Of a stretch of 41,290 nt of DNA, positions 1-39,282 are shown piece by piece. The translations under genes and the position numbers were made by a program. The stretch is from a virus: the UHGV virus genome UHGV-0387525. One strand, 5' to 3'. A model generated the notes under the pieces. That model was not told where the DNA came from, made no database searches, and worked only from the letters and a program-made list of their open reading frames with translations. Position 1 is the first letter of the stretch. Each line of letters opens with the position of its first letter.

Positions 1-88
1 CTTCTACTCATGATATCTGGCAACAACCCTCTGTAGACCGCCATCCGGCGGTCTACAGAGGGTTGTTGCCAGATATCATGAGTAGAAG
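1..88. repeat. perfect inverted repeat, 42-bp arms (1-42 and 47-88) around centre ATCC
   Basis: 1-42 is the exact reverse complement of 47-88; 1-53 is also the exact reverse complement of 41225-41277, so the left arm may be an assembly foldback. Confidence 0.6.
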
Positions 89-306
89 AAGTATGCCAGT
101 TCCGCTTTTGAGCGCAGCCATTGTCTTGTTTTACAGGCTTTAAAAAGCCCATTCATCAATACCTTACCTGGCATTTTGCGCTTACCTGTTAAGTGAGTCT
201 GGATATAGTGACTCGTCGTTCCGGCTTCCTGTGCGAAGGCTTCACGCTCATCCGGAGTAAGTGCAAGCCAGTGCTTTTTGAAATCGAAATGTCCGTTATC
301 GCTCAT
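76..306 (-). CDS. small HTH DNA-binding protein, Cro/CII-like by position (first gene of minus-strand early arm)
   Basis: 76 aa; helix-turn-helix-like segment AQEAGTTSHYIQTHLTGKR; divergent from repressor candidate across an operator-bearing intergenic region. Confidence 0.5.
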   Translation of the reverse strand: MSDNGHFDFKKHWLALTPDEREAFAQEAGTTSHYIQTHLTGKRKMPGKVLMNGLFKACKTRQWLRSKAELAYFFYS

Positions 307-388: not shown

Positions 389-390
389 AT

Positions 391-405
391 TTACCTGTTG
401 GGTAA
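391..405. promoter_or_regulatory. operator-like palindrome TTACC-N5-GGTAA
   Basis: ttacctgttgggtaa; between divergent genes 76..306 and 461..1045. Confidence 0.6.
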
Positions 406-460
406 TATTGCTTTAAATTGAATCATCTACTGATTCATATATGAGGCGATTTTCCAGAAA

Positions 461-1045
461 ATGAAAAGTATCCAGGACGTCCGCAGGCAAAATCTCAACG
501 ACTTGATCGACCGTGAATTCAATGGTGTTCAGACGCGGATGGCAGAAAAACTTGGAACTCAGGCAAATCTGGTAAACCGCTGGGCTCTTGGCAAGAAGGT
601 TATCGGCGACCAGGTTGCACGAAAAATTGAAGCGGCCGCCAATAAACCCCGTAACTGGCTTGATATTGATCGTTCGCTTTCTCAGGAGGGTTTTCAGCCT
701 GTCGGCCCGAGCGATATAGGTCAGCTGGCGGCTCACAACCTGGAACGCTGGATGAGCGAAAGCCGCGACCTTTCAACACAGGGAAAACTTCACCGCGCAT
801 CCGGCGTCGCCCAGGTGACAATCAGCCGCCTGTTAAACAATGAGGTCAGCGTTTCCATTTCCACCCTGGAGAATGTTGCATCCGCATTCGGGCGTCACGG
901 ATATGAACTACTGATTCACCCGCACGACCCTGCGACTATCAACTATGACCGCTCACGCTACGCATTGTTACCCGAAACCGAGAAAGCAAAGATCGAAAGT
1001 TACATTGAATTTGTCATCAACCAGAACGAAAAAAGCAAACAATAA
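461..1045 (+). CDS. tandem-HTH transcriptional regulator; candidate non-cleavable immunity repressor
   Basis: 194 aa with two XRE-like HTH segments (RMAEKLGTQANLVNRWALGKK and ASGVAQVTISRLLNNEVSVSI); no S24 peptidase-like motif seen; monocistronic, followed by intrinsic terminator; weak RBS. Confidence 0.5.
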   Translation: MKSIQDVRRQNLNDLIDREFNGVQTRMAEKLGTQANLVNRWALGKKVIGDQVARKIEAAANKPRNWLDIDRSLSQEGFQPVGPSDIGQLAAHNLERWMSESRDLSTQGKLHRASGVAQVTISRLLNNEVSVSISTLENVASAFGRHGYELLIHPHDPATINYDRSRYALLPETEKAKIESYIEFVINQNEKSKQ

Positions 1046-1090: not shown

Positions 1091-1102
1091 TTGCCAGATA
1101 GA

Positions 1103-1117
1103 TTACCTTACGGGTAA
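1103..1117. promoter_or_regulatory. operator-like palindrome TTACC-N5-GGTAA
   Basis: ttaccttacgggtaa; preceded by TTGCCA -35-like hexamer at 1091-1096. Confidence 0.6.
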
Positions 1118-1164
1118 TTTTTTTAACTCATATCTATTGACACCAAACCAAATAAGCATAATTA

Positions 1165-1179
1165 TTACCCCAACGGTAA
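1165..1179. promoter_or_regulatory. operator-like palindrome TTACC-N5-GGTAA at a promoter
   Basis: ttaccccaacggtaa; TTGACA at 1137-1142 upstream; site overlaps the predicted -10/+1. Confidence 0.6.
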
Positions 1180-1198
1180 CAGACCGAGGTAACAAGTT

Positions 1199-12388: not shown

Positions 12389-12492
12389 GTTAAATCTCCA
12401 GATAGTCGCAGCACCCGTTGCGCCGCATATCTGGTTATTCTATTACCTAAAAAACCATATATGGATAAAAAGACTATAAATACCAATAGATA

Positions 12493-12507
12493 TTACCTTT
12501 CGGGTAA
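12493..12507. promoter_or_regulatory. operator-like palindrome TTACC-N5-GGTAA
   Basis: ttacctttcgggtaa upstream of gene 12584..12841. Confidence 0.6.
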
Positions 12508-12544
12508 TTTGCAAAACGTGCTGGATAGCAAACAAATTATTTGT

Positions 12545-12564
12545 TACTGTATAAACATACAGTT
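12545..12564. promoter_or_regulatory. LexA (SOS) box
   Basis: TACTGTATAAACATACAGTT: CTGT-N8-ACAG, 17/20 match to TACTGTATATATATACAGTA. Confidence 0.7.
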
Positions 12565-12583
12565 ATTGCATGGAGAAGATAAG

Positions 12584-12841
12584 ATGCAGCAGTATCACTA
12601 TCCACTGGAAGACGGATTTACCGAAAGGATTCACACGCCGGGAGGCGTCAGGTCACTGGTGGAGGGATCGCACTTGATGAAATTACTCCGGGATCTCGAT
12701 AAGGATGGATTTAATGTCGATGGCCCACTTGCCGAACTGACTGCACTGATTAACTACGTCACCAGCTCACAGATGTCTATGCAGGATCTGCAAACACATC
12801 TCGACTATTGTGCCGAACAATTACGAAAACAAACCCGGTAA
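12584..12841 (+). CDS. small antirepressor-like protein (Tum-like), paralogous to C-terminus of Ant
   Basis: 85 aa; GGAGAAG RBS before ATG 12584; LMKLLRDLDKDGFNVDGPLAELTAL...MQDLQTHLDY aligns by eye with LMNLLNQLQEDGHDVSGAAAELTTM...LRDIQTHAEY at the end of 13990..14685. Confidence 0.55.
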   Translation: MQQYHYPLEDGFTERIHTPGGVRSLVEGSHLMKLLRDLDKDGFNVDGPLAELTALINYVTSSQMSMQDLQTHLDYCAEQLRKQTR

Positions 12842-12847
12842 ATTTAA

Positions 12848-12865
12848 AGGCCGCAAGAGCGGCCT
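12848..12865. terminator. bidirectional hairpin between convergent genes
   Basis: stem aggccgc/gcggcct, loop aaga; T-rich on both sides. Confidence 0.45.
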
Positions 12866-13592
12866 ATCGTTTCGCTTTGTGCTCGTCCCAGCACGTTTTG
12901 CACCATGCCATTAAGCCGTCCGCATTTTGATTATTAGGGTAAAAGCTGGTCCGTTTTCTGCGGACATTACAAATTGGGCACCACTTCATATGGCGTGTAT
13001 TCTTTGGGCCATCGAGACACCTTGCACACCACTTAGTCAATCCATCTGGATTTTTTGACGATTTCCGGAATTTGTCATATGGAAGGTTTATTCTGCATCG
13101 CAAACACTGCTTGCGGCCACTTGAAACTCTGTTAGCTGATTCTTCTTTTGGCGGCGATACAGAAGGTATTCTTGCTGGCTCTGATACTGCCTGAGGTGCT
13201 TTATTAGATGACTGAGACGATATGTCATCACCAGGGAATCTTCCATGATATGCCGGACGCGTTGACACTCCAGGTGGAAGCTCAGCTGTAAACGGCTTTG
13301 GCTGAATCAGTTGCCTCTCTTTTGCTAACTCCTGCTGTTTATAATATGTCTGGATTACCGCACTATCATAAGCAGGAGGTGCGGAAATATTAGGCGCATT
13401 ACCTCCAGTTTTTTGAAACTGAGTAGAGGTGTGTTCTATCACCTGTGTACGATTAATCGTTATCTCCCCATCTTCGGTCTTTATCGTTTTGTTATGATTA
13501 ACGACCGTACGATCAGAGATCTTAGTCTTGTTCTGGTTGATAACGTAAATAATCACCGCAACCACACCAACAACTATCCAGAAAACTTCCAT
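12864..13592 (-). CDS. membrane-anchored protein with tandem Cys-rich (zinc-ribbon-like) repeats
   Basis: 242 aa; N-terminal TM helix; two copies of C..C..N.DGL..WC..C pattern near C-terminus. Confidence 0.45.
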   Translation of the reverse strand: MEVFWIVVGVVAVIIYVINQNKTKISDRTVVNHNKTIKTEDGEITINRTQVIEHTSTQFQKTGGNAPNISAPPAYDSAVIQTYYKQQELAKERQLIQPKPFTAELPPGVSTRPAYHGRFPGDDISSQSSNKAPQAVSEPARIPSVSPPKEESANRVSSGRKQCLRCRINLPYDKFRKSSKNPDGLTKWCARCLDGPKNTRHMKWCPICNVRRKRTSFYPNNQNADGLMAWCKTCWDEHKAKR

Positions 13593-13612
13593 TGCTTTTC
13601 CTCACAATAACA

Positions 13613-13627
13613 TTACCTTAAAGGTAA
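13613..13627. promoter_or_regulatory. operator-like palindrome TTACC-N5-GGTAA
   Basis: ttaccttaaaggtaa, 21 bp upstream of the minus-strand start at 13592. Confidence 0.6.
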
Positions 13628-13705
13628 TATCTTGCTTTCAGGTGATCAAGCGTTAAACGCAATCAACCAAATACGGTTGATTTTAATATTTCTTCGCGTT
13701 TATCA

Positions 13706-13720
13706 TTACCTTTGCGGTAA
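13706..13720. promoter_or_regulatory. operator-like palindrome overlapping promoter -10
   Basis: ttacctttgcggtaa; TTGATT (13677-13682), 18-nt spacer, TATCAT (13701-13706). Confidence 0.6.
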
Positions 13721-13989
13721 ATTTACATCGCACTCCTCTTGTGCCATAGTAATCGGGCACTGGCAAAATCCAGTGCCGGGATTGGCGTCCCGGATTACTA
13801 AAAGGCGCATTCACCGCGCAAGCGGTTTTTTTATGCGTATAGCACGGCCACATTCGTATTATGGTGGGCTGTGTGGGGGCACCGAAAGGTGCGCCGGGTC
13901 CTTTTAGCCGGTTACGCCAACCCTGCACAGTTCACCACCAACCGATTGGCGTCGGTAGTGGTGATTAACCAGACTAAAAGGTAACCACT
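13721..13989 (+). ncRNA. candidate structured leader / small RNA upstream of ant
   Basis: no credible ORF; hairpins at 13757-13778 and 13776-13793; terminator-like hairpin accgc-gcaa-gcggt + T7 at 13813-13832; decoy SD-like actaaaagg 13797-13805; anti-SD ccttttag 13900-13907. Confidence 0.35.
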
Positions 13990-14685
13990 ATGACAGCTAC
14001 AAAAAGCACGTCCATTTTTTCTTTCGAATCCCAAGCCGATATACGGGTAATCGTCATTAATGGTGAGCCATGGTTTATCGCTTCAGATGTTTGTCGGGCT
14101 ATAGGCATAGCAAACCATCGAGATGCTGTTCGAAAACTTGATGATGATGAGAAGGGCGTCGCTTCAACCGACACCCCTGGCGGTGAGCAAGAATCGATCA
14201 TCATCTCCGAGTCAGGCCTCTACACACTGATCCTCCGCTGCCGCGACGCAGTGACACCAGGCACTATCCCCTACCGCTTTCGCAAATGGGTTACAGGTGA
14301 GGTTCTTCCTCAGATCCGCCGCACCGGAAGTTACATTAAAAACTCGCTCCCGCAGGAAGAACGCATAAAGATGGTTGCCGACCAGGTAGCCAACGCCACA
14401 GCATCAGCAGTAATGCAGGCGATGAAGATAGAGAACAAAACCTACAGCGCCCCACTGAAGCCCGGCTACCGCAGCCTGATTCATTCTCCGTCTGGTGTTC
14501 TCGGCCTGACGGAGAACTCACTGCTGATGAATTTGCTGAACCAGTTGCAGGAAGACGGGCACGATGTATCGGGCGCGGCGGCGGAGCTGACAACCATGTT
14601 TTGCTACATCGTTGGTGTGAGTAAATGCCTGCGTGATATCCAGACTCACGCGGAGTACATCAACGACAAAGCAGGATTCTTCTGA
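13990..14685 (+). CDS. ant: antirepressor with N-terminal Bro-N domain
   Basis: 231 aa; Bro-N-like N-terminus (IRVIVINGEPWFIASDVCRAIGI...ESGLYTLILRCR); C-terminal segment paralogous to 12584..12841. Confidence 0.75.
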   Translation: MTATKSTSIFSFESQADIRVIVINGEPWFIASDVCRAIGIANHRDAVRKLDDDEKGVASTDTPGGEQESIIISESGLYTLILRCRDAVTPGTIPYRFRKWVTGEVLPQIRRTGSYIKNSLPQEERIKMVADQVANATASAVMQAMKIENKTYSAPLKPGYRSLIHSPSGVLGLTENSLLMNLLNQLQEDGHDVSGAAAELTTMFCYIVGVSKCLRDIQTHAEYINDKAGFF

Positions 14686-14757
14686 CGGGCGGCGGCACAG
14701 GGATGTGCCTTTAAATAATTCTGTACAGATTGCAGACCGGGGGTGAATAGCGTACTA

Positions 14758-14772
14758 TTACCTTAAAGGTAA
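14758..14772. promoter_or_regulatory. operator-like palindrome overlapping promoter
   Basis: ttaccttaaaggtaa; TTGCAG 14730-14735, 17-nt spacer, TACTAT 14753-14758. Confidence 0.6.
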
Positions 14773-14798
14773 ACCATGTGTTTACATGAGGAGGAGAT

Positions 14799-15008
14799 AT
14801 GGGATTTTGGTTCGCTCGTACAAAAACGAGGGATAATGCACCCAGCCCTCAGGCAAAAAATACAGAAGTTCCGGCGTCAGCGCAGGTTAACAAGCGTGGT
14901 GGTGTGTATATCTCATCACAGCAAATTTCTGAGCTTCCTGAGGTTAAGGAGATGCGTCGTCTCGCTGCTGCAATCGTTAAACAGGATCTTGCCACTGTAA
15001 GGAAATAG
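14799..15008 (+). CDS. small hypothetical protein
   Basis: 69 aa; GAGGAGG RBS before ATG 14799. Confidence 0.5.
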   Translation: MGFWFARTKTRDNAPSPQAKNTEVPASAQVNKRGGVYISSQQISELPEVKEMRRLAAAIVKQDLATVRK

Positions 15009-15871
15009 TGTTGTTAGCTCTTCTAATTATCCCCATTCTGGTTAGTGGTTATATTATGATAACCGCTAACCAGTATCATTATTTCCGTTTATACCGACAT
15101 GAAGGCCAGCTTCTTTATATGAAAGTAGCTGCATTAGGTACATATTGCCTTGTTGCTTCTGTAATAATTGCCACATTTATAAAATATAAATATCCTGATT
15201 TTCACCTAGTTCACGATATGGTGGAAACTTTTAATGTAACGTCAAAACCAGAAACAGATAGAATTTACATGTGGCTACTTCTTCTGTCAGTCACATCAAT
15301 TTGCTTCTCTTTGTGTTATGTATCTTTTGTTTGGCTAAAAGATCTTCTTTTAGGTTGTTTTTATAAACGTGATATTTATGACAAAATATCAGAGGCAATG
15401 AAAGCTAGGGTATTGCGAAAAACGTACTCCCAGGGTTCTTTAGATTTGCTATTGCTTGATGCAATCGAATCAGATCCTAAGAAACCAATGTTAATTACTT
15501 TATCATCAAATAAAGTATACGTTGGAATAATAAATGGTTCTGGTGAGCCAACGGAAAATCAAGGGCCACACCAACACATATCTTTTGTTCCTTTAATGTC
15601 AGGGTACAGAAACAAAGAAAATTTATCTGTTACATTTACAAACGCTTACCCAGGTGAAATCCAAATTAAGCGCAGTGCTGCGATAAAAGGGATAAGCAAA
15701 AAGAAAGTTCAAGGTCTAGAAATTATGGTATCTATAGACGAAATAAGTCATATATCATGGTTTGACTTTGAAGTATATAAGGCAACAAATAACAAAGTAG
15801 AAACAAAGGGTCATGTTGTTAATGTGACCAAAAATGGTCGCAACATATACTACAGAAGTGGCAGGAAATAA
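15008..15871 (+). CDS. polytopic membrane protein of unknown function (accessory gene)
   Basis: 287 aa; about three N-terminal TM helices then soluble domain; AT-rich; GTG start overlapping upstream stop, alternative ATG 15056. Confidence 0.5.
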   Translation: MLLALLIIPILVSGYIMITANQYHYFRLYRHEGQLLYMKVAALGTYCLVASVIIATFIKYKYPDFHLVHDMVETFNVTSKPETDRIYMWLLLLSVTSICFSLCYVSFVWLKDLLLGCFYKRDIYDKISEAMKARVLRKTYSQGSLDLLLLDAIESDPKKPMLITLSSNKVYVGIINGSGEPTENQGPHQHISFVPLMSGYRNKENLSVTFTNAYPGEIQIKRSAAIKGISKKKVQGLEIMVSIDEISHISWFDFEVYKATNNKVETKGHVVNVTKNGRNIYYRSGRK

Positions 15872-15895
15872 ATTTTACGCAGTTTAGGTGGCTTA

Positions 15896-16400
15896 TATGG
15901 ATAATACTATCTTAGGCGCATTGATAGGTGCTGTTATTGCTATAGTTTCCACTTATATAAATGCAGGACAAGGATACAAAAACAGCATAAGATTAGAGCG
16001 ACAAAAAATATTAAGGGATAAACGCGAGCAATTATTTATAAATTGTATACTTACTAAAAAAGTCATAGATTCAAGCACAATTACCATTCTCAATTTCGTA
16101 AAAAATGCCAGATACCACTCTGATAGTAAATTTGACGTATCAAGAGCGAATCCGTTGCAAACGATGGAAATGCTAATAAACATATACCTTCCTGAGTATA
16201 AAAAAGACTTACAAGAACTCAATAATGCGTATCAAGAATTTCACAAATACTACTCTCAATATACATGTGCACATACCTTCAAAAATATGCCTGATAATGA
16301 GAAGTCGAGGTTTATTGAGGAGGCTGATTTTTATGCAAAAAAGATATATGGCAAACTTAATGATATTAAGGACAAGATATCATTAAACTCAATAGTATAA
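15896..16400 (+). CDS. single-pass membrane protein of unknown function (accessory gene)
   Basis: N-terminal TM helix ILGALIGAVIAIVSTYI; AGGTGG RBS 5 nt before ATG 15896; AT-rich. Confidence 0.5.
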
Positions 16401-32397: not shown

Positions 32398-32487
32398 ATC
32401 AATGACTCCGTACGCAATTAAATTATTACCAATTTAACCACATATGATTTATTTATCGTAGGTGGTTGACATTTAACGCACAAATTA

Positions 32488-32502
32488 TTACCTTTCAGGT
32501 AA
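32488..32502. promoter_or_regulatory. operator-like palindrome with upstream TTGACA
   Basis: ttacctttcaggtaa; TTGACA at 32466-32471. Confidence 0.6.
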
Positions 32503-32824
32503 CAAAAGAGTTCATTCCGGTTACTAACCTGACTGGCTTGTCGTTAAATTGAACAGGTGGAGTGAGCTTTTATTTTGAGCAGTACGGCGTATGGCACATG
32601 CGCCGATAGCGGTCTGGATACGTTTAAGGGGCACCCTCCCTGGCTGTGGCAAACGAACCAGGTAGCCGGAATGTGCAAGTCGAGCGGTTTTATTCCGCGC
32701 ACGGGGATTCACCATCCCGGCGATTCGGTGTGACGCCTCGGAAGAGACGAGGGTACAACGATGAGAGCATTTATGGAGCCGCGACAAAGTGTGGCGCCTT
32801 AACAGGCTAAGTGCTCTCAGCGTT

Positions 32825-32901
32825 GTGGCATTAGCTCAGTTGGACAGAGCAACCGCCTTCTAAGCGGTTGGTCGCAGGTTCGAATCCTGCATGCCACGCC
32901 A
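32825..32901 (+). tRNA. tRNA-Arg (anticodon UCU)
   Basis: manual cloverleaf: acceptor GTGGCAT/ATGCCAC, D-arm GCTC/GAGC, anticodon stem ACCGC/GCGGT with loop CTTCTAA, T-arm GCAGG-TTCGAAT-CCTGC, discriminator G, encoded CCA. Confidence 0.9.
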
Positions 32902-33566: not shown

Positions 33567-33608
33567 TCCTCATCAGAGGATATCAACGACATTATCCCCA
33601 CCAGCGGA

Positions 33609-35084
33609 TTAAGCATATGGATCGTAATCTGTGATGGCCTTGCCTTGCTGGTTCTGCTGCCCGGGAATTCGCAGACGCTTCGACACAGGGAACGCAAACG
33701 TCAGCAGTAGCGCATCGCCTTTACCAGGAGAACGCCCAAGCCGCTCCTTGATATCTTCCTTCGGTTCGATAACGATTTTACCGTCCACTCGAACTTTGTA
33801 CTCTGCCGCAGACAGGTCGTCCGCTGTTTCCTGGTCATCCAGCATGCCGCCCAGCCTCAGCCATGTCTTGCATGAGTTGAACATCTCCCCACGCTTGTTG
33901 AGCATCTGCGGGTCAGTAGACGCGCCACCGAACGGAACAAGTTGCCATGTACGACCCCAGCCATCACCGATTGACTTCAGACCAGTTCCGTAACCGAAGT
34001 CGATGAACACTGCGTCAGCCTGGTACTGGTCTTCAAAGTCAGCGATACGCTTCGCCATAATCAGATCGTCAGTGGTCTTGTTGCCAGTCCACAGCACCTT
34101 ACTGTGCAGCCCCTGCCGCAGGTATATCACAGCGTCATCAACGCCGGAGTATGCCGGGTCAACGCCGATTATCACCGGAGCATGTGCAACCTGCGCAGCG
34201 GTTACCACCCGTTTCATTGCCTCGTCAGTAAGGCCGGTAGGGATAAACTGCAATTCAGATGCATCCGGGAATATGCCGCGCACACGGATTTTAACGAAGT
34301 CGCTGTCTTCCCCGTAGTCATCAACCCATTTCTGCAACTGCTGTTTGTTAGTGCCTTCCACCGTCCGGCTGTCAATCTGCGCAGTTTTCCAGCGGTGTTT
34401 ATATTTGCGGAAACATTCGCGAAAACGCCCGGTGTTACGTGTAGGGTTTCCGAACGCCACCCAGATAATCTCAGTGTCTTCGTCCGTAAGCGCACCCTCA
34501 GCAACTTCCCACACCAGATCCGCAATGTTCGACGCTTCATCGAATACCACGATGATGCGTTTGCGCTCGTTGTGTAGTCCGGCGAATGCCTCAGTGTTGT
34601 GCTCAGACCAGGGTATTGCGTCAGCCCGCCACCGCTTGTCGTGCCCAGGGTCATTGCTGTACATCGCGGTAGCGGTACAGGTAAACCAGTCTTTCGTGAT
34701 AGCAAGGTTCGACCACTTGATAATTTCCGGCCAGGTCTTCGTTCGTAGCTGGTTGTCGGTGTTGGCGGTCACCACGACCTTACAATCCTCGCAAGTGGAC
34801 ATGCCCCAGTTGATCAGCATTGAGATGAATGCGGATTTACCAATACCGTGACCAGAAGCGCGTGCCAACATAAGCGGCTGATAGCGCGTCTCTGGATTCT
34901 GCAGGTGATCACGTATCTCTCGGAACGCATCAGCCTGCCACTGACGTGGGCCGGTAGCATGTGCCAGTTCAGTCCCCTCTTCCCCCCACGGGAACGCATA
35001 GAGGGCATAGCCAAGCGGATCGTGAGTGAACCCTGCAATATCCTCGATTAACTGCTCTTCAGGAGATAACGCTGTATCTGTCAC
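33609..35084 (-). CDS. terminase large subunit
   Basis: 491 aa; Walker A-like ARASGHGIGKS; acidic nuclease-type C-terminal half. Confidence 0.85.
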   Translation of the reverse strand: MTDTALSPEEQLIEDIAGFTHDPLGYALYAFPWGEEGTELAHATGPRQWQADAFREIRDHLQNPETRYQPLMLARASGHGIGKSAFISMLINWGMSTCEDCKVVVTANTDNQLRTKTWPEIIKWSNLAITKDWFTCTATAMYSNDPGHDKRWRADAIPWSEHNTEAFAGLHNERKRIIVVFDEASNIADLVWEVAEGALTDEDTEIIWVAFGNPTRNTGRFRECFRKYKHRWKTAQIDSRTVEGTNKQQLQKWVDDYGEDSDFVKIRVRGIFPDASELQFIPTGLTDEAMKRVVTAAQVAHAPVIIGVDPAYSGVDDAVIYLRQGLHSKVLWTGNKTTDDLIMAKRIADFEDQYQADAVFIDFGYGTGLKSIGDGWGRTWQLVPFGGASTDPQMLNKRGEMFNSCKTWLRLGGMLDDQETADDLSAAEYKVRVDGKIVIEPKEDIKERLGRSPGKGDALLLTFAFPVSKRLRIPGQQNQQGKAITDYDPYA

Positions 35085-35964: not shown

Positions 35965-35973
35965 AACACCTTC

Positions 35974-35985
35974 GTGACATGTCAC
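35974..35985. repeat. 12-bp palindrome GTGACATGTCAC (copy 2)
   Basis: identical to 33523-33534; between genes 35982..36323 and 35752..35964. Confidence 0.6.
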
Positions 35986-36323
35986 ACTATTAATTTCGTT
36001 TCATGCCAGCCTTTGGTCACCCAGCATTGCGAGTCACCATTACACGGGCATGAATTAACTGGAACTCTCTCGCCGCACTTACCGCAACGTTTTCTGCTGA
36101 TCGATTTTATACGCCCGCGCACCCGGGCATCATCCTGGCGGATCAGCAGCGCGATGTACTCGGCCATTTCATAGGGATCTCGACCAGGGCGCCGGGCGGC
36201 GCAGTTCCGCTCCAGCATTTCAATTTCCTGAGCATCAAGCACAATCTCCAGCTTACGCACACCAGATGCAGCTTGTCTGGCTCTCTGAGCGGCTTTGCGC
36301 TCTGCTGCTGATTTAGCCATCAA
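35982..36323 (-). CDS. basic protein with C-terminal Cys cluster (possible zinc-binding regulator)
   Basis: 113 aa; CGKCGERVPVNSCPCNGDSQC; upstream of packaging genes. Confidence 0.4.
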   Translation of the reverse strand: MMAKSAAERKAAQRARQAASGVRKLEIVLDAQEIEMLERNCAARRPGRDPYEMAEYIALLIRQDDARVRGRIKSISRKRCGKCGERVPVNSCPCNGDSQCWVTKGWHETKLIV

Positions 36324-39190: not shown

Positions 39191-39193
39191 GAT

Positions 39194-39208
39194 TTACCCC
39201 TGAGGTAA
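39194..39208. promoter_or_regulatory. operator-like palindrome overlapping start region of gene 38846..39190
   Basis: ttacccctgaggtaa directly upstream of the minus-strand ATG. Confidence 0.6.
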
Positions 39209-39255
39209 TTAAAAACCACATAAGACACTAAATCAATAGATTTTAGAATATTTTA

Positions 39256-39270
39256 TTACCCAGTAGGTAA
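39256..39270. promoter_or_regulatory. operator-like palindrome
   Basis: ttacccagtaggtaa; on minus strand upstream of TTGATT-N17-TTTAAT promoter-like element. Confidence 0.6.
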
Positions 39271-39282
39271 TCATCGAGACGT

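What the first reader, a model, noticed from the sequence alone, without database searches (positions are those of the whole stretch)
12493..12841. LexA box plus phage operator upstream of a small Tum-like antirepressor
A near-consensus SOS box (TACTGTATAAACATACAGTT, 12545-12564) lies between an operator palindrome (12493-12507) and an 85-aa ORF (12584..12841) whose sequence parallels the C-terminal ~60 residues of the Bro-N antirepressor at 13990..14685. The repressor candidate has no recognisable autocleavage domain. Together this suggests induction by a LexA-controlled antirepressor, as in coliphage 186 Tum or Gifsy prophages, here in a T7-like virion background and under dual LexA/phage-repressor control.
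Basis: partly seen in the sequence, partly recalled or inferred. Interest (0 to 1): 0.75.

Follow-up and report, generated by a model that had tools for sequence, protein, structure and literature searches.

The report
Known LexA-controlled phage antirepressor (SPC32H Ant)

Summary
The window is an epsilon15/phiV10-like temperate podophage (genus Uetakevirus), about 97% identical to E. coli phage TL-2011b. The 85-aa ORF (12584..12841) is 86-88% identical to Ant of Salmonella phage SPC32H (PDB 5D50 chain E, E=4e-47). The 461..1045 protein is the counterpart of SPC32H Rep (5D50 chain A), with HTH domains and no S24 cleavage domain. The LexA box aligns exactly with the SPC32H box, which in the sibling phage SPC32N carries a point mutation. 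Box, operator and their spacing are conserved in 12 loci from five host genera. So this is the published LexA -> Ant -| Rep induction switch, not a new one. "Tum-like" is functional analogy only, because there is no sequence homology. The palindrome is one of about 12-17 scattered Rep operators, already annotated in epsilon15. It lies upstream of the ant core promoter, so a true "double lock" is unproven and somewhat unlikely. One addition goes beyond SPC32H: the Bro-N paralogue sits behind Rep operators and an isrK + C4 antisense-RNA leader of the P1 immI type. Its identical copy in phage ZX5 has antirepressor activity.

The parts
12492..12508 (.). 17-bp Rep operator ATTACCTTTCGGGTAAT, in the divergent tailspike/ant control region
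   Evidence: It is a perfect match to ATTACC-N5-GGTAAT, a motif enriched 17 versus 1.2. The half-sites are invariant in 9 aligned relatives and have <=1 mismatch in 12 loci. The equivalent site is annotated 'protein_bind repressor' in epsilon15.
12522..12550 (+). Inferred ant promoter: -35-like TGGATA (12522-12527), 17-bp spacer, extended -10 TGtTACTGT (12542-12550) overlapping the left arm of the LexA box
   Evidence: CTGGATAG and TG-n-TA are invariant in 9 relatives. This promoter was read from the sequence and has not been mapped. The consensus scan did not list it because it is below 9/12.
12545..12564 (.). LexA (SOS) box TACTGTATAAACATACAGTT
   Evidence: It is the only consensus match in the window, with 0 expected. 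It aligns column for column with the SPC32H box. SPC32N differs from SPC32H by ACAG->AAAG in that box. The box is centred 27.5-29.5 bp upstream of the ATG in 12 loci.
12572..12575 (+). Shine-Dalgarno GGAG of ant
   Evidence: Read from the sequence. GGAG is invariant in the alignment.
12584..12841 (+). ant: 85-aa antirepressor, counterpart of SPC32H Ant
   Evidence: PDB 5D50_E 'Anti-repressor protein', E=4.1e-47. It is 88% identical to the gene annotated ant in SPC32H and SPC32N. It hits phrog_450 at 9e-48.
12848..12865 (.). GC-rich hairpin between the convergent ant and 12864..13592(-) genes; likely a terminator
   Evidence: Terminator-like site. A stem-loop terminator is annotated at the same place in epsilon15.
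461..1045 (+). rep: 194-aa repressor, counterpart of SPC32H Rep, with no autocleavage domain
   Evidence: PDB 5D50_A 'Repressor', E=3.5e-42. It is 43% identical to SPC32H Rep and 99.5% identical to the ZX5 ORF21 repressor. Pfam gives HTH only.
390..406 (.). Rep operator between rep and the divergent Cro-like gene 76..306(-)
   Evidence: The gene 76..306(-) hits phrog_35, transcriptional repressor.
1102..1180 (.). Pair of Rep operators (1102-1118, 1164-1180), 62 bp centre to centre, bracketing a TTGACA-spacer-TAATTA early promoter
   Evidence: The same 62-bp spacing occurs at 39193/39255 and in SPC32H at 33603/33665 and 35971/36033.
13612..13628 (.). Rep operator 20 bp upstream of the start of 12864..13592(-)
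   Evidence: Perfect motif match.
13705..13750 (+). Rep operator (13705-13721) directly abutting the -35 of a promoter-like site, TTTACA-17-CATAGT (13722-13750)
   Evidence: The predicted start site, about 13757, coincides with the 5' end of the isrK match.
13757..13832 (+). isrK-family sRNA with its own terminator
   Evidence: Rfam RF01394, 77.9 bits (gathering score 50), full length.
13857..13942 (+). C4 antisense RNA (P1/P7 immI type)
   Evidence: Rfam RF01695, 77.7 bits (gathering score 45), full length. Its unpaired CCUUUUAG and ACGCCAA have exact complements at 13974-13981 (covering the Shine-Dalgarno of the next gene) and 13946-13952.
13990..14685 (+). Second antirepressor: Bro-N domain (residues 17-107) fused to an Ant-like C-terminal domain (residues ~148-229)
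   Evidence: Pfam Bro-N at 2.3e-21. The C-terminus hits phrog_450 at 4.2e-36. It is 42% identical to Ant. It is 100% identical to ZX5 ORF4, whose overexpression lowered lysogeny about 1000-fold.

Best explanation
This is the SPC32H-type antirepression switch of epsilon15-like temperate podophages.

In the lysogen, host LexA sits on the SOS box that overlaps the -10 region of the ant promoter and keeps ant silent. The phage repressor Rep (461..1045), a tetrameric HTH protein that RecA cannot cleave, occupies 17-bp ATTACC-N5-GGTAAT operators scattered in front of early, late and accessory operons.

DNA damage activates RecA, LexA cleaves itself, and ant is transcribed. The 85-aa Ant binds the C-terminal domain of Rep, breaks the DNA-binding tetramer into dimers, and so derepresses all Rep-controlled promoters.

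The operator at 12492-12508 is a genuine Rep site in the divergent tailspike/ant control region. It most probably serves the tailspike (late) promoter and/or modulates ant, rather than acting as a second lock on ant.

What is shown here: homology of Ant and Rep to the crystallised pair; position and conservation of the box and operator; and the SPC32H/SPC32N box mutation. What is shown elsewhere: the Ant-Rep interaction and the tetramer mechanism (as cited in PMC9638917 and PMC9986798), and mitomycin-C inducibility and Rep function in ZX5 (PMC9782041). What is inferred: LexA binding to this particular box, the exact promoter, and the role of the operator.
For: - Ant equals PDB 5D50_E at E=4e-47, and Rep equals 5D50_A at E=3.5e-42.
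- The gene annotated ant in SPC32H/SPC32N is at the same position, between the tailspike and the virion genes.
- SPC32H and SPC32N differ in this 6.2-kb region at only two bases, one of which destroys the CAG arm of the aligned LexA box.
- There is a unique LexA-consensus match in the window and in SPC32H.
- Box, operator, TG-n-TA and CTGGATAG are conserved in 9 phages. Spacing is constant in 12 loci with Ant identity down to 58%.
- Rep has no S24 domain.
- Rep and Ant occur in the same set of phage records, 37 versus 35.
- The same operator motif is enriched in SPC32H, 12 versus 0.06, and is annotated as repressor sites in epsilon15.
- Literature: antirepressor made after LexA self-cleavage (PMC7380047); Rep binds DNA as a tetramer and an Ant tetramer binds two Rep dimers (PMC9638917); the Rep C-terminal domain binds Ant (PMC9986798).
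- The ZX5 lysogen is mitomycin-C inducible and the ZX5 repressor, 99.5% identical to the window's, blocks lytic growth (PMC9782041).
Against: - No experiment exists for this exact phage.
- The two primary SPC32H papers are not in the held library. The statements that LexA binds the box and that the SPC32N mutation gives constitutive Ant rest on my memory of the 2013 abstract plus the sequence check.
- The window's Rep is only 43% identical to SPC32H Rep, and 50% in the C-terminal Ant-binding part, so Ant-Rep binding here is inferred from co-occurrence and homology.
- The ant promoter hexamers are weak and unmapped.
Confidence: 0.9

Rival explanations
1. Double lock: Rep bound at 12492-12508 and LexA bound at 12545-12564 both repress the ant promoter, so ant needs loss of both.
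For: The operator and LexA box keep a fixed 52.5-54.5 bp spacing in 12 loci. A -35-like TTGCAA (12509-12514) directly abuts the operator, the same geometry as at the isrK promoter, where the operator 13705-13721 is followed by TTTACA.
Against: - It is logically awkward: the antirepressor needed to remove Rep would itself be held off by Rep, which would block SOS induction.
- The operator lies 13 bp upstream of the conserved -35 (TGGATA) and about 57 bp upstream of the inferred start. At clear early promoters, by contrast, an operator covers the -10/+1 region (1164-1180, 14757-14773).
- The -10 that would go with TTGCAA is poor and not conserved.
- SPC32N keeps the operator intact and has only the LexA box mutated, yet is reported to express Ant constitutively (memory of the Kim & Ryu 2013 abstract). 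This is suggestive rather than conclusive.
Confidence: 0.2
2. The operator belongs to the divergent tailspike (late) promoter only, and its position next to ant is incidental.
For: - The epsilon15 authors annotated repressor sites in front of each late transcription unit (terminase, portal, tailspike), with an IHF site between this operator and the tailspike gene.
- The window has equivalent sites near the terminase and portal operons (35676/35694, 32487).
- An invariant block at 12437-12466 contains a good minus-strand -10, TAGAAT (12442->12437), for the tailspike gene (reading of the sequence).
Against: The operator is about 70 bp upstream of that putative tailspike start, so it does not overlap this core promoter either. 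Its spacing to the LexA box is as conserved as its spacing to the tailspike-side block; there are no indels on either side in the Salmonella, E. coli and Enterobacter phages.
Confidence: 0.4
3. The small protein is a member of the coliphage 186 Tum family, a true homologue.
For: Both are small, are LexA-controlled and inactivate a non-cleavable repressor. A review calls the Salmonella antirepressors 'homologous to Tum' (PMC7380047).
Against: BLASTP of Ant against Tum gives E=0.06 over 46 residues with gaps, and the Bro-N protein against Tum gives E=0.33. Tum falls in phrog_189 and NCBIfam DinI, while Ant falls in phrog_450 with no NCBIfam or Pfam family.
Confidence: 0.03
4. The box and the palindrome are chance matches and the ORF is not a gene.
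For: None beyond the short length of the ORF.
Against: Zero shuffles give the box. The motif is enriched 14-fold. There are 136 protein clusters of about 85-86 aa, a crystal structure, and the control region is present in 528 of 5426 complete E. coli genomes.
Confidence: 0.01

Closest known systems
Rep/Ant/LexA antirepression system of Salmonella phage SPC32H (Kim & Ryu 2013, J Virol 87:11775; Kim et al. 2016, PNAS 113:E2480; PDB 5D50, 5D4Z)
   Same: - Same genus (Uetakevirus) and the same gene order, with ant divergent from the tailspike.
- Ant is 86-88% identical.
- Rep has the same architecture and no cleavage domain.
- The LexA box is at the identical distance from the ATG.
- The same ATTACC-N5-GGTAAT operators occur at equivalent places.
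   Different: - Rep is only 43% identical.
- The host is E. coli.
- The window additionally carries an accessory block between ant and the virion genes, with a second, Bro-N-fused Ant-domain protein behind isrK and C4 RNAs. SPC32H and epsilon15 lack this block.
Coliphage 186 Tum / CI / LexA-controlled promoter p95
   Same: The logic is the same: a LexA box over the -10 of a promoter for a small antirepressor that reversibly inactivates a non-cleavable immunity repressor (186 annotation).
   Different: There is no sequence homology. Tum has a DinI-like C-terminal domain. 186 is a P2-like myovirus, and its CI is unrelated to Rep.
LexA-controlled antirepressors of Gifsy-1/-3 and Fels-2 prophages (Lemire et al. 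2011, PMC3121763)
   Same: SOS induction through LexA-repressed antirepressor genes, with repressors that are not cleaved (as summarised in PMC7380047).
   Different: They are lambdoid siphoviruses. Sequence relatedness to the Gifsy proteins was not tested directly here. No record outside the Uetakevirus-like set matched Ant in the phage collection.
P1/P7 immI region (C1-controlled promoter, C4 antisense RNA, ant) and the Gifsy-1 isrK-orf45-anrP locus (PMC4825925)
   Same: This comparison is for the second module only. It has a repressor operator at the promoter, a leader-encoded C4 RNA whose loops are complementary to the ribosome-binding region of the downstream antirepressor gene, and an isrK sRNA upstream of a Bro-type antirepressor.
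   Different: The repressor here is Rep rather than C1. isrK and C4 occur in tandem. The antirepressor carries an SPC32H-Ant-like C-terminal domain. None of this has been tested in this phage group.
P22 immI (mnt-arc-ant next to tailspike gene 9)
   Same: An antirepressor gene sits beside the tailspike gene in a temperate podophage. This rests on my own knowledge and was not tested here.
   Different: P22 Ant is large and is controlled by Mnt, Arc and sar RNA, not LexA. P22 c2 is RecA-cleavable, and P22 ant mutants remain SOS-inducible (PMC7380047).

Membership tests
SPC32H-type Rep/Ant antirepression system | Small (~86 aa) Ant protein homologous to PDB 5D50 chain E | tested here: met
   phmmer E=4.1e-47 over residues 2-84. 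tblastn gives 88% identity to the annotated ant of SPC32H.
SPC32H-type Rep/Ant antirepression system | Rep-type repressor: N-terminal DNA-binding domain plus C-terminal Ant-binding/tetramerisation domain, with no S24 autocleavage domain | tested here: met
   5D50_A at E=3.5e-42, full length, and 5D4Z_A at E=3.6e-20. Pfam gives HTH only. Identity is 54% in the N-terminal part and 50% in the C-terminal part.
SPC32H-type Rep/Ant antirepression system | LexA box overlapping the ant promoter | tested here: met
   The box matches the consensus at 17/20 and is unique in the window. It aligns with the SPC32H box, which is mutated in SPC32N. Its position is conserved in 12 loci.
SPC32H-type Rep/Ant antirepression system | Syntenic position: ant divergent from the tailspike gene, at the end of the virion gene block | tested here: met
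SPC32H-type Rep/Ant antirepression system | LexA actually binds the box, and Ant binds Rep and releases it from DNA | not testable with these tools
   This needs EMSA or pull-down assays. It is only indirectly supported by ZX5 mitomycin-C induction (PMC9782041).
Coliphage 186 Tum family | Sequence homology to Tum (N-terminal antirepressor part plus DinI-like C-terminal domain) | tested here: not met
   BLASTP E=0.06. Different PHROG and NCBIfam families.
Coliphage 186 Tum family | LexA-repressed promoter driving the antirepressor gene | tested here: met
   Compare the p95/LexA annotation in 186 with the window box. This is analogy, not membership.
Bro-N / P22-Ant-type large antirepressors | Bro-N (PF02498) domain | tested here: not met
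   The small ORF has no Pfam hit above threshold. The neighbouring 231-aa protein does have Bro-N, at 2.3e-21.
P1 immI-type C4-RNA-controlled antirepressor (applies to 13990..14685, not to the small ORF) | C4 antisense RNA in the leader, with loop sequences complementary to the ribosome-binding region of the downstream gene | tested here: met
   RF01695 at 77.7 bits against a gathering score of 45. There are 8-nt and 7-nt exact complements, one covering the Shine-Dalgarno. The global duplex energy is not significant, with 28 of 500 shuffles reaching it.
P1 immI-type C4-RNA-controlled antirepressor (applies to 13990..14685, not to the small ORF) | C4 RNA is processed and blocks translation of the antirepressor in vivo | not testable with these tools
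   This needs Northern blots, reporter fusions and compensatory mutations.

The most novel reading that the evidence does not exclude
A subset of E. coli, Enterobacter and Klebsiella Uetakeviruses run a two-tier antirepression circuit built from one Rep-binding domain used twice. The first tier is a LexA-gated stand-alone Ant that senses DNA damage. The second is a Bro-N::Ant-domain fusion kept off by Rep operators and by isrK/C4 leader RNAs. Once the small Ant has removed some Rep, the fusion would be derepressed and would lock in induction by positive feedback. Alternatively, it would act in trans as an anti-immunity factor against resident homoimmune prophages. The upstream Rep operator at ant would then tune, rather than block, the first tier.
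Probability: 0.3. Interest if true: 0.45.

Novelty: already known. Interest (0 to 1): 0.15.

Why it matters
It matters mainly for annotation. The gene is labelled 'hypothetical protein' in TL-2011b, phiV10, ZX5, epsilon15 and RefSeq E. coli genomes. Its control region occurs in 528 of 5426 complete E. coli genomes. The only functional paper on an E. coli member, ZX5 (PMC9782041), studied the Bro-N antirepressor and overlooked the LexA-controlled small Ant. Transferring the SPC32H mechanism explains why these widespread prophages, including one from an EHEC outbreak strain, are induced by DNA-damaging agents even though their repressor cannot be cleaved. The coexistence of two Ant-domain proteins under different controls is a modest, testable extension.

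Tried and rejected
- Reading the primary SPC32H papers (PMC3807360, PMC4983836 / 10.1073/pnas.1602618113) and the epsilon15 genome paper (PMC2698709): none is held. I relied instead on the PDB match, GenBank annotation, citing papers and a direct SPC32H/SPC32N sequence comparison.
- Tum homology: rejected.
- The Pfam hit of the small ORF to DUF724 (17.6 bits against a cut-off of 38.4): treated as spurious.
- NCBIfam: no family for Ant or the Bro-N protein.
- AlphaFold2 on the Bro-N::Ant protein without an alignment: mean pLDDT 41, unusable, so no fold search was run.
- Global RNA duplex energy of C4 against the downstream leader: not significant (28 of 500 shuffles as good). Only the exact complements located in the unpaired C4 segments are informative.
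- A longer 126-aa reading of the ORF from ATG 12461, as called by some automatic pipelines: rejected. It would run through the operator, promoter and LexA box. The conserved Shine-Dalgarno/ATG is at 12572/12584, and the crystallised protein has 86 residues.
- A search for a third Ant-domain copy in the window: none found.
- Looking for Ant homologues outside epsilon15-like prophages to separate the box from the operator: all contexts retrieved were still Uetakevirus-like.

Full report
**1. The observation**

- The palindrome is ATTACC-TTTCG-GGTAAT at 12492-12508, one base longer on each side than stated.
- The 20-mer TACTGTATAAACATACAGTT is at 12545-12564.
- A GGAG is at 12572-12575, and an ATG at 12584 opens an 85-codon frame ending at 12841.

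The 20-mer matches the E. coli LexA consensus at 17 of 20 positions. It is the only match with <=3 mismatches in the 41-kb window, and none of 100 shuffles gave one. The palindrome motif ATTACC-N5-GGTAAT occurs 17 times at <=2 mismatches against 1.2 expected. The good copies are almost all intergenic, and three of them flank the repressor candidate.

The small protein aligns with residues 150-223 of the Bro-N protein (13990..14685) at 42% identity, E=8e-16. The 461..1045 protein has HTH hits only and no S24 peptidase domain.

**2. What the window is**

Megablast places the region in epsilon15/phiV10-like temperate podophages, genus Uetakevirus. The best match is E. coli phage TL-2011b at 96.7% (taxonomy). 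These are not T7-like in the taxonomic sense. The attP core reported for ZX5, phiV10 and epsilon15 (PMC9782041) occurs once, inside the window next to the integrase gene. So the window is a non-integrated phage genome arrangement.

**3. Identity of the two proteins**

- The small ORF matches one entry in the Protein Data Bank: 5D50 chain E, 'Anti-repressor protein', 86 residues, E=4.1e-47, aligned end to end.
- The 461..1045 protein matches 5D50 chain A, 'Repressor', at E=3.5e-42 over its full length. It also matches the C-terminal fragment 5D4Z.
- 5D50 is the Rep-Ant complex of Salmonella phage SPC32H.
- In the SPC32H and SPC32N GenBank records the homologous gene (88% identity) is annotated ant. 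It lies in the same place, divergent from the tailspike gene at the end of the virion gene block.
- Rep and Ant are found in practically the same set of phage records, 37 and 35 respectively, from the same host genera.
- In the large protein collection the family comprises 136 clusters, nearly all of 85-86 residues, from Escherichia, Salmonella, Citrobacter, Klebsiella, Enterobacter and relatives.

**4. What is known about that system**

The two primary papers are not in the held library: Kim & Ryu 2013, J Virol 87:11775, and Kim et al. 2016, PNAS 113:E2480. Citing papers state the following.
- In several Salmonella prophages, LexA self-cleavage allows synthesis of an antirepressor that inhibits the repressor by protein-protein interaction. 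Kim & Ryu 2013 is cited for this (PMC7380047).
- SPC32H Rep binds palindromic DNA as a tetramer, and the Ant tetramer binds two Rep dimers and breaks the tetramer (PMC9638917).
- The Rep C-terminal domain mediates both tetramerisation and Ant binding (PMC9986798).

From my own memory of the 2013 abstract:
- Rep is not cleaved during SOS.
- ant is repressed by LexA through a site overlapping its promoter.
- SPC32N, which differs from SPC32H by two nucleotides, carries a mutation in that LexA site, causing constitutive Ant synthesis and lytic growth.

I checked that memory against the sequences. In the 6.2 kb around ant, the two records differ at exactly two bases. One is in the tailspike coding region. 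The other changes CTGTATGTTTATACAG to CTGTATGTTTATAAAG, which destroys the right arm of the box.

**5. The box and the operator are conserved elements**

An alignment of the tailspike-ant intergenic region was made from nine phages of Salmonella, E. coli, Enterobacter and Klebsiella. It shows these features as invariant, while the sequence between them varies:
- both operator half-sites;
- the right arm and most of the left arm of the LexA box;
- a TG-n-TA just upstream of the box;
- a CTGGATAG block 17 bp further upstream;
- the GGAG.

I read this as a promoter with a TGGATA -35 (12522-12527) and an extended -10, TGtTACTGT (12542-12550), that overlaps the LexA box. This is inferred, not mapped.

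Three more divergent prophage loci were then added. In all 12 loci the box is centred 27.5-29.5 bp upstream of the ATG, the operator 80-84 bp upstream, and their spacing is 52.5-54.5 bp. SPC32H itself has one LexA-consensus match, in front of ant. It also has 12 copies of the same operator motif against 0.06 expected, at equivalent positions.

The epsilon15 record already annotates these 17-mers as repressor-binding sites, including the one between gp19 (the Ant counterpart, labelled hypothetical) and the tailspike gene. So the 'operator' is previously described, at the level of annotation.

**6. 'Tum-like'**

Coliphage 186 Tum shows no significant similarity to the small protein (E=0.06) or to the Bro-N protein (E=0.33). 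Tum belongs to phrog_189 and the NCBIfam DinI model. Ant belongs to phrog_450 and has no Pfam or NCBIfam family. The resemblance is one of circuit logic: a LexA box over the promoter of a small antirepressor (186 annotation). It is not family membership.

**7. Dual control**

The operator ends 13 bp upstream of the inferred -35 and is centred about 57 bp upstream of the inferred ant start. On the other strand it lies about 70 bp upstream of a putative tailspike start. That start follows a minus-strand -10, TAGAAT, at 12442->12437, inside an invariant block at 12437-12466.

Elsewhere in the window, operators occupy clearly repressing positions. Examples are 1164-1180 immediately after a TTGACA-spacer-TAATTA promoter, and 14757-14773 over a TACTAT -10. 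Operators also often come in pairs 62 bp apart (1102/1164, 39193/39255). The same spacing is seen in SPC32H.

At ant, the promoter-proximal position of such a pair is taken by the LexA box. Three points argue against a simple double lock.
- An antirepressor gene silenced by its own target would block induction.
- The operator does not overlap the conserved core promoter.
- SPC32N keeps the operator intact, yet is reported to make Ant constitutively. This rests on memory and is suggestive only, because in an infection Rep and Ant race each other.

I therefore regard Rep binding at this site as very likely but its target as open: the tailspike promoter, modulation of ant, or both.

**8. The second antirepressor**

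SPC32H and epsilon15 go directly from ant to the virion genes. The window has an accessory block instead. In the roughly 270-nt leader of the Bro-N gene, Rfam finds two full-length matches well above threshold:
- isrK at 13757-13832 (77.9 bits, gathering score 50);
- C4 antisense RNA at 13857-13942 (77.7 bits, gathering score 45).

A promoter-like site, TTTACA-17-CATAGT (13722-13750), would start transcription at about 13757, the 5' end of isrK. A Rep operator (13705-13721) abuts its -35.

In the predicted C4 fold, the unpaired CCUUUUAG and ACGCCAA have exact complements downstream. CUAAAAGG at 13974-13981 covers the Shine-Dalgarno of the Bro-N gene, and UUGGCGU is at 13946-13952. From my own knowledge, this is the arrangement by which P1 C4 RNA blocks translation in the immI operon. 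The global duplex energy test was not significant.

The Gifsy-1 isrK-orf45-anrP locus is a published parallel in which an isrK transcript controls translation of a downstream antirepressor-like gene (PMC4825925). The isrK+C4+Bro-N module is present in TL-2011b, phiV10, Tyrion and Kp4865-1. It is absent from SPC32H, epsilon15, BUCT554 and BUCT711.

The Bro-N domain is ubiquitous (1162 phage records), but only 18 records also cover the Ant-like C-terminus. Every phage record with any Ant-domain hit also has a stand-alone Ant at >=58% identity. So in that collection the fused form is never found alone.

The window's Bro-N protein is 100% identical to ZX5 ORF4. Overexpressing ORF4 lowered prophage titres from 1e9 to 1e6 and repressor transcripts by 75%. 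The ZX5 repressor, 99.5% identical to the window's, abolished free phage, and ZX5 lysogens rose from 1e7 to 1e9 PFU/ml with mitomycin C (PMC9782041). That paper does not mention the small Ant, the LexA box or the RNAs.

**9. Verdict**

The instance here is a same-genus counterpart with the same synteny and the same box, so the finding is already known and scores low on interest.

The remaining value is twofold.
- Annotation: the gene is 'hypothetical' in most records, and the control region occurs in 528 of 5426 complete E. coli genomes.
- A modest hypothesis: some members use the Ant domain twice, once under LexA and once under Rep plus isrK/C4 RNA control.

Noticed in passing
window 13757-13942: Tandem isrK (RF01394) and C4 antisense RNA (RF01695) lie in the leader of the Bro-N antirepressor gene. 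The C4 loop sequences are complementary to the gene's Shine-Dalgarno region. This is a P1 immI-like RNA control module inside an epsilon15-like phage. It is present in TL-2011b, phiV10, Tyrion and Kp4865-1, and absent from SPC32H, epsilon15, BUCT554 and BUCT711.
   Followed up: partly
window 1102-1180 and 39193-39271; L012 (SPC32H) 33603-33681 and 35971-36049: Rep operators recur as pairs exactly 62 bp centre to centre, bracketing promoters. This fits DNA looping or bridging by the Rep tetramer. At ant the promoter-proximal partner is replaced by the LexA box.
   Followed up: partly
window 12437-12466: An invariant block (TCTATTACC..AACC..ATATG.AT) lies between the operator and the tailspike start. 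It contains an isolated ATTACC operator half-site and, on the minus strand, a good -10 (TAGAAT) for the tailspike gene. The epsilon15 authors annotated an IHF site next to it.
   Followed up: partly
window 461-1045 versus 12584-12841: Ant is 86-88% identical between the E. coli and Salmonella phages, while its target Rep is only 43% identical (54% N-terminal, about 30% in the middle, 50% C-terminal). The operator half-sites are identical. This raises the possibility of cross-acting antirepressors between heteroimmune relatives.
   Followed up: partly
window 12864-13592 (-): An intact 242-aa ORF (phrog_6762) with a C-terminal zinc-ribbon resembling endonuclease VII or Lar. It is convergent with ant and has a perfect Rep operator 20 bp upstream of its start. 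In TL-2011b the region is only a misc_feature 'similar to hypothetical protein'.
   Followed up: no
window 32825-32901 (+): A tRNA-Arg (anticodon TCT) lies downstream of a TTGACA promoter whose -10 overlaps a Rep operator (32487-32503). SPC32H has a tRNA-Arg at the equivalent place.
   Followed up: no
window 12440-12600 versus complete E. coli genomes: The ant control region is present in 528 of 5426 complete E. coli genomes, almost always once and on the chromosome, with the gene annotated 'hypothetical protein'.
   Followed up: partly
window 14757-16400: A further Rep operator (14757-14773) overlaps a TTGCAG-17-TACTAT promoter-like site in front of three genes of unknown function: 14799..15008, 15008..15871 and 15888..16400 (phrog_5739, phrog_3630, phrog_36918). 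A 15-bp perfect hairpin lies at 15038-15073, inside the second ORF.
   Followed up: no
L002 (TL-2011b) and HEMP4, outside the window: tblastn with Ant finds three Ant-domain places in TL-2011b and HEMP4, but only two in the window. So some relatives carry a third copy.
   Followed up: no
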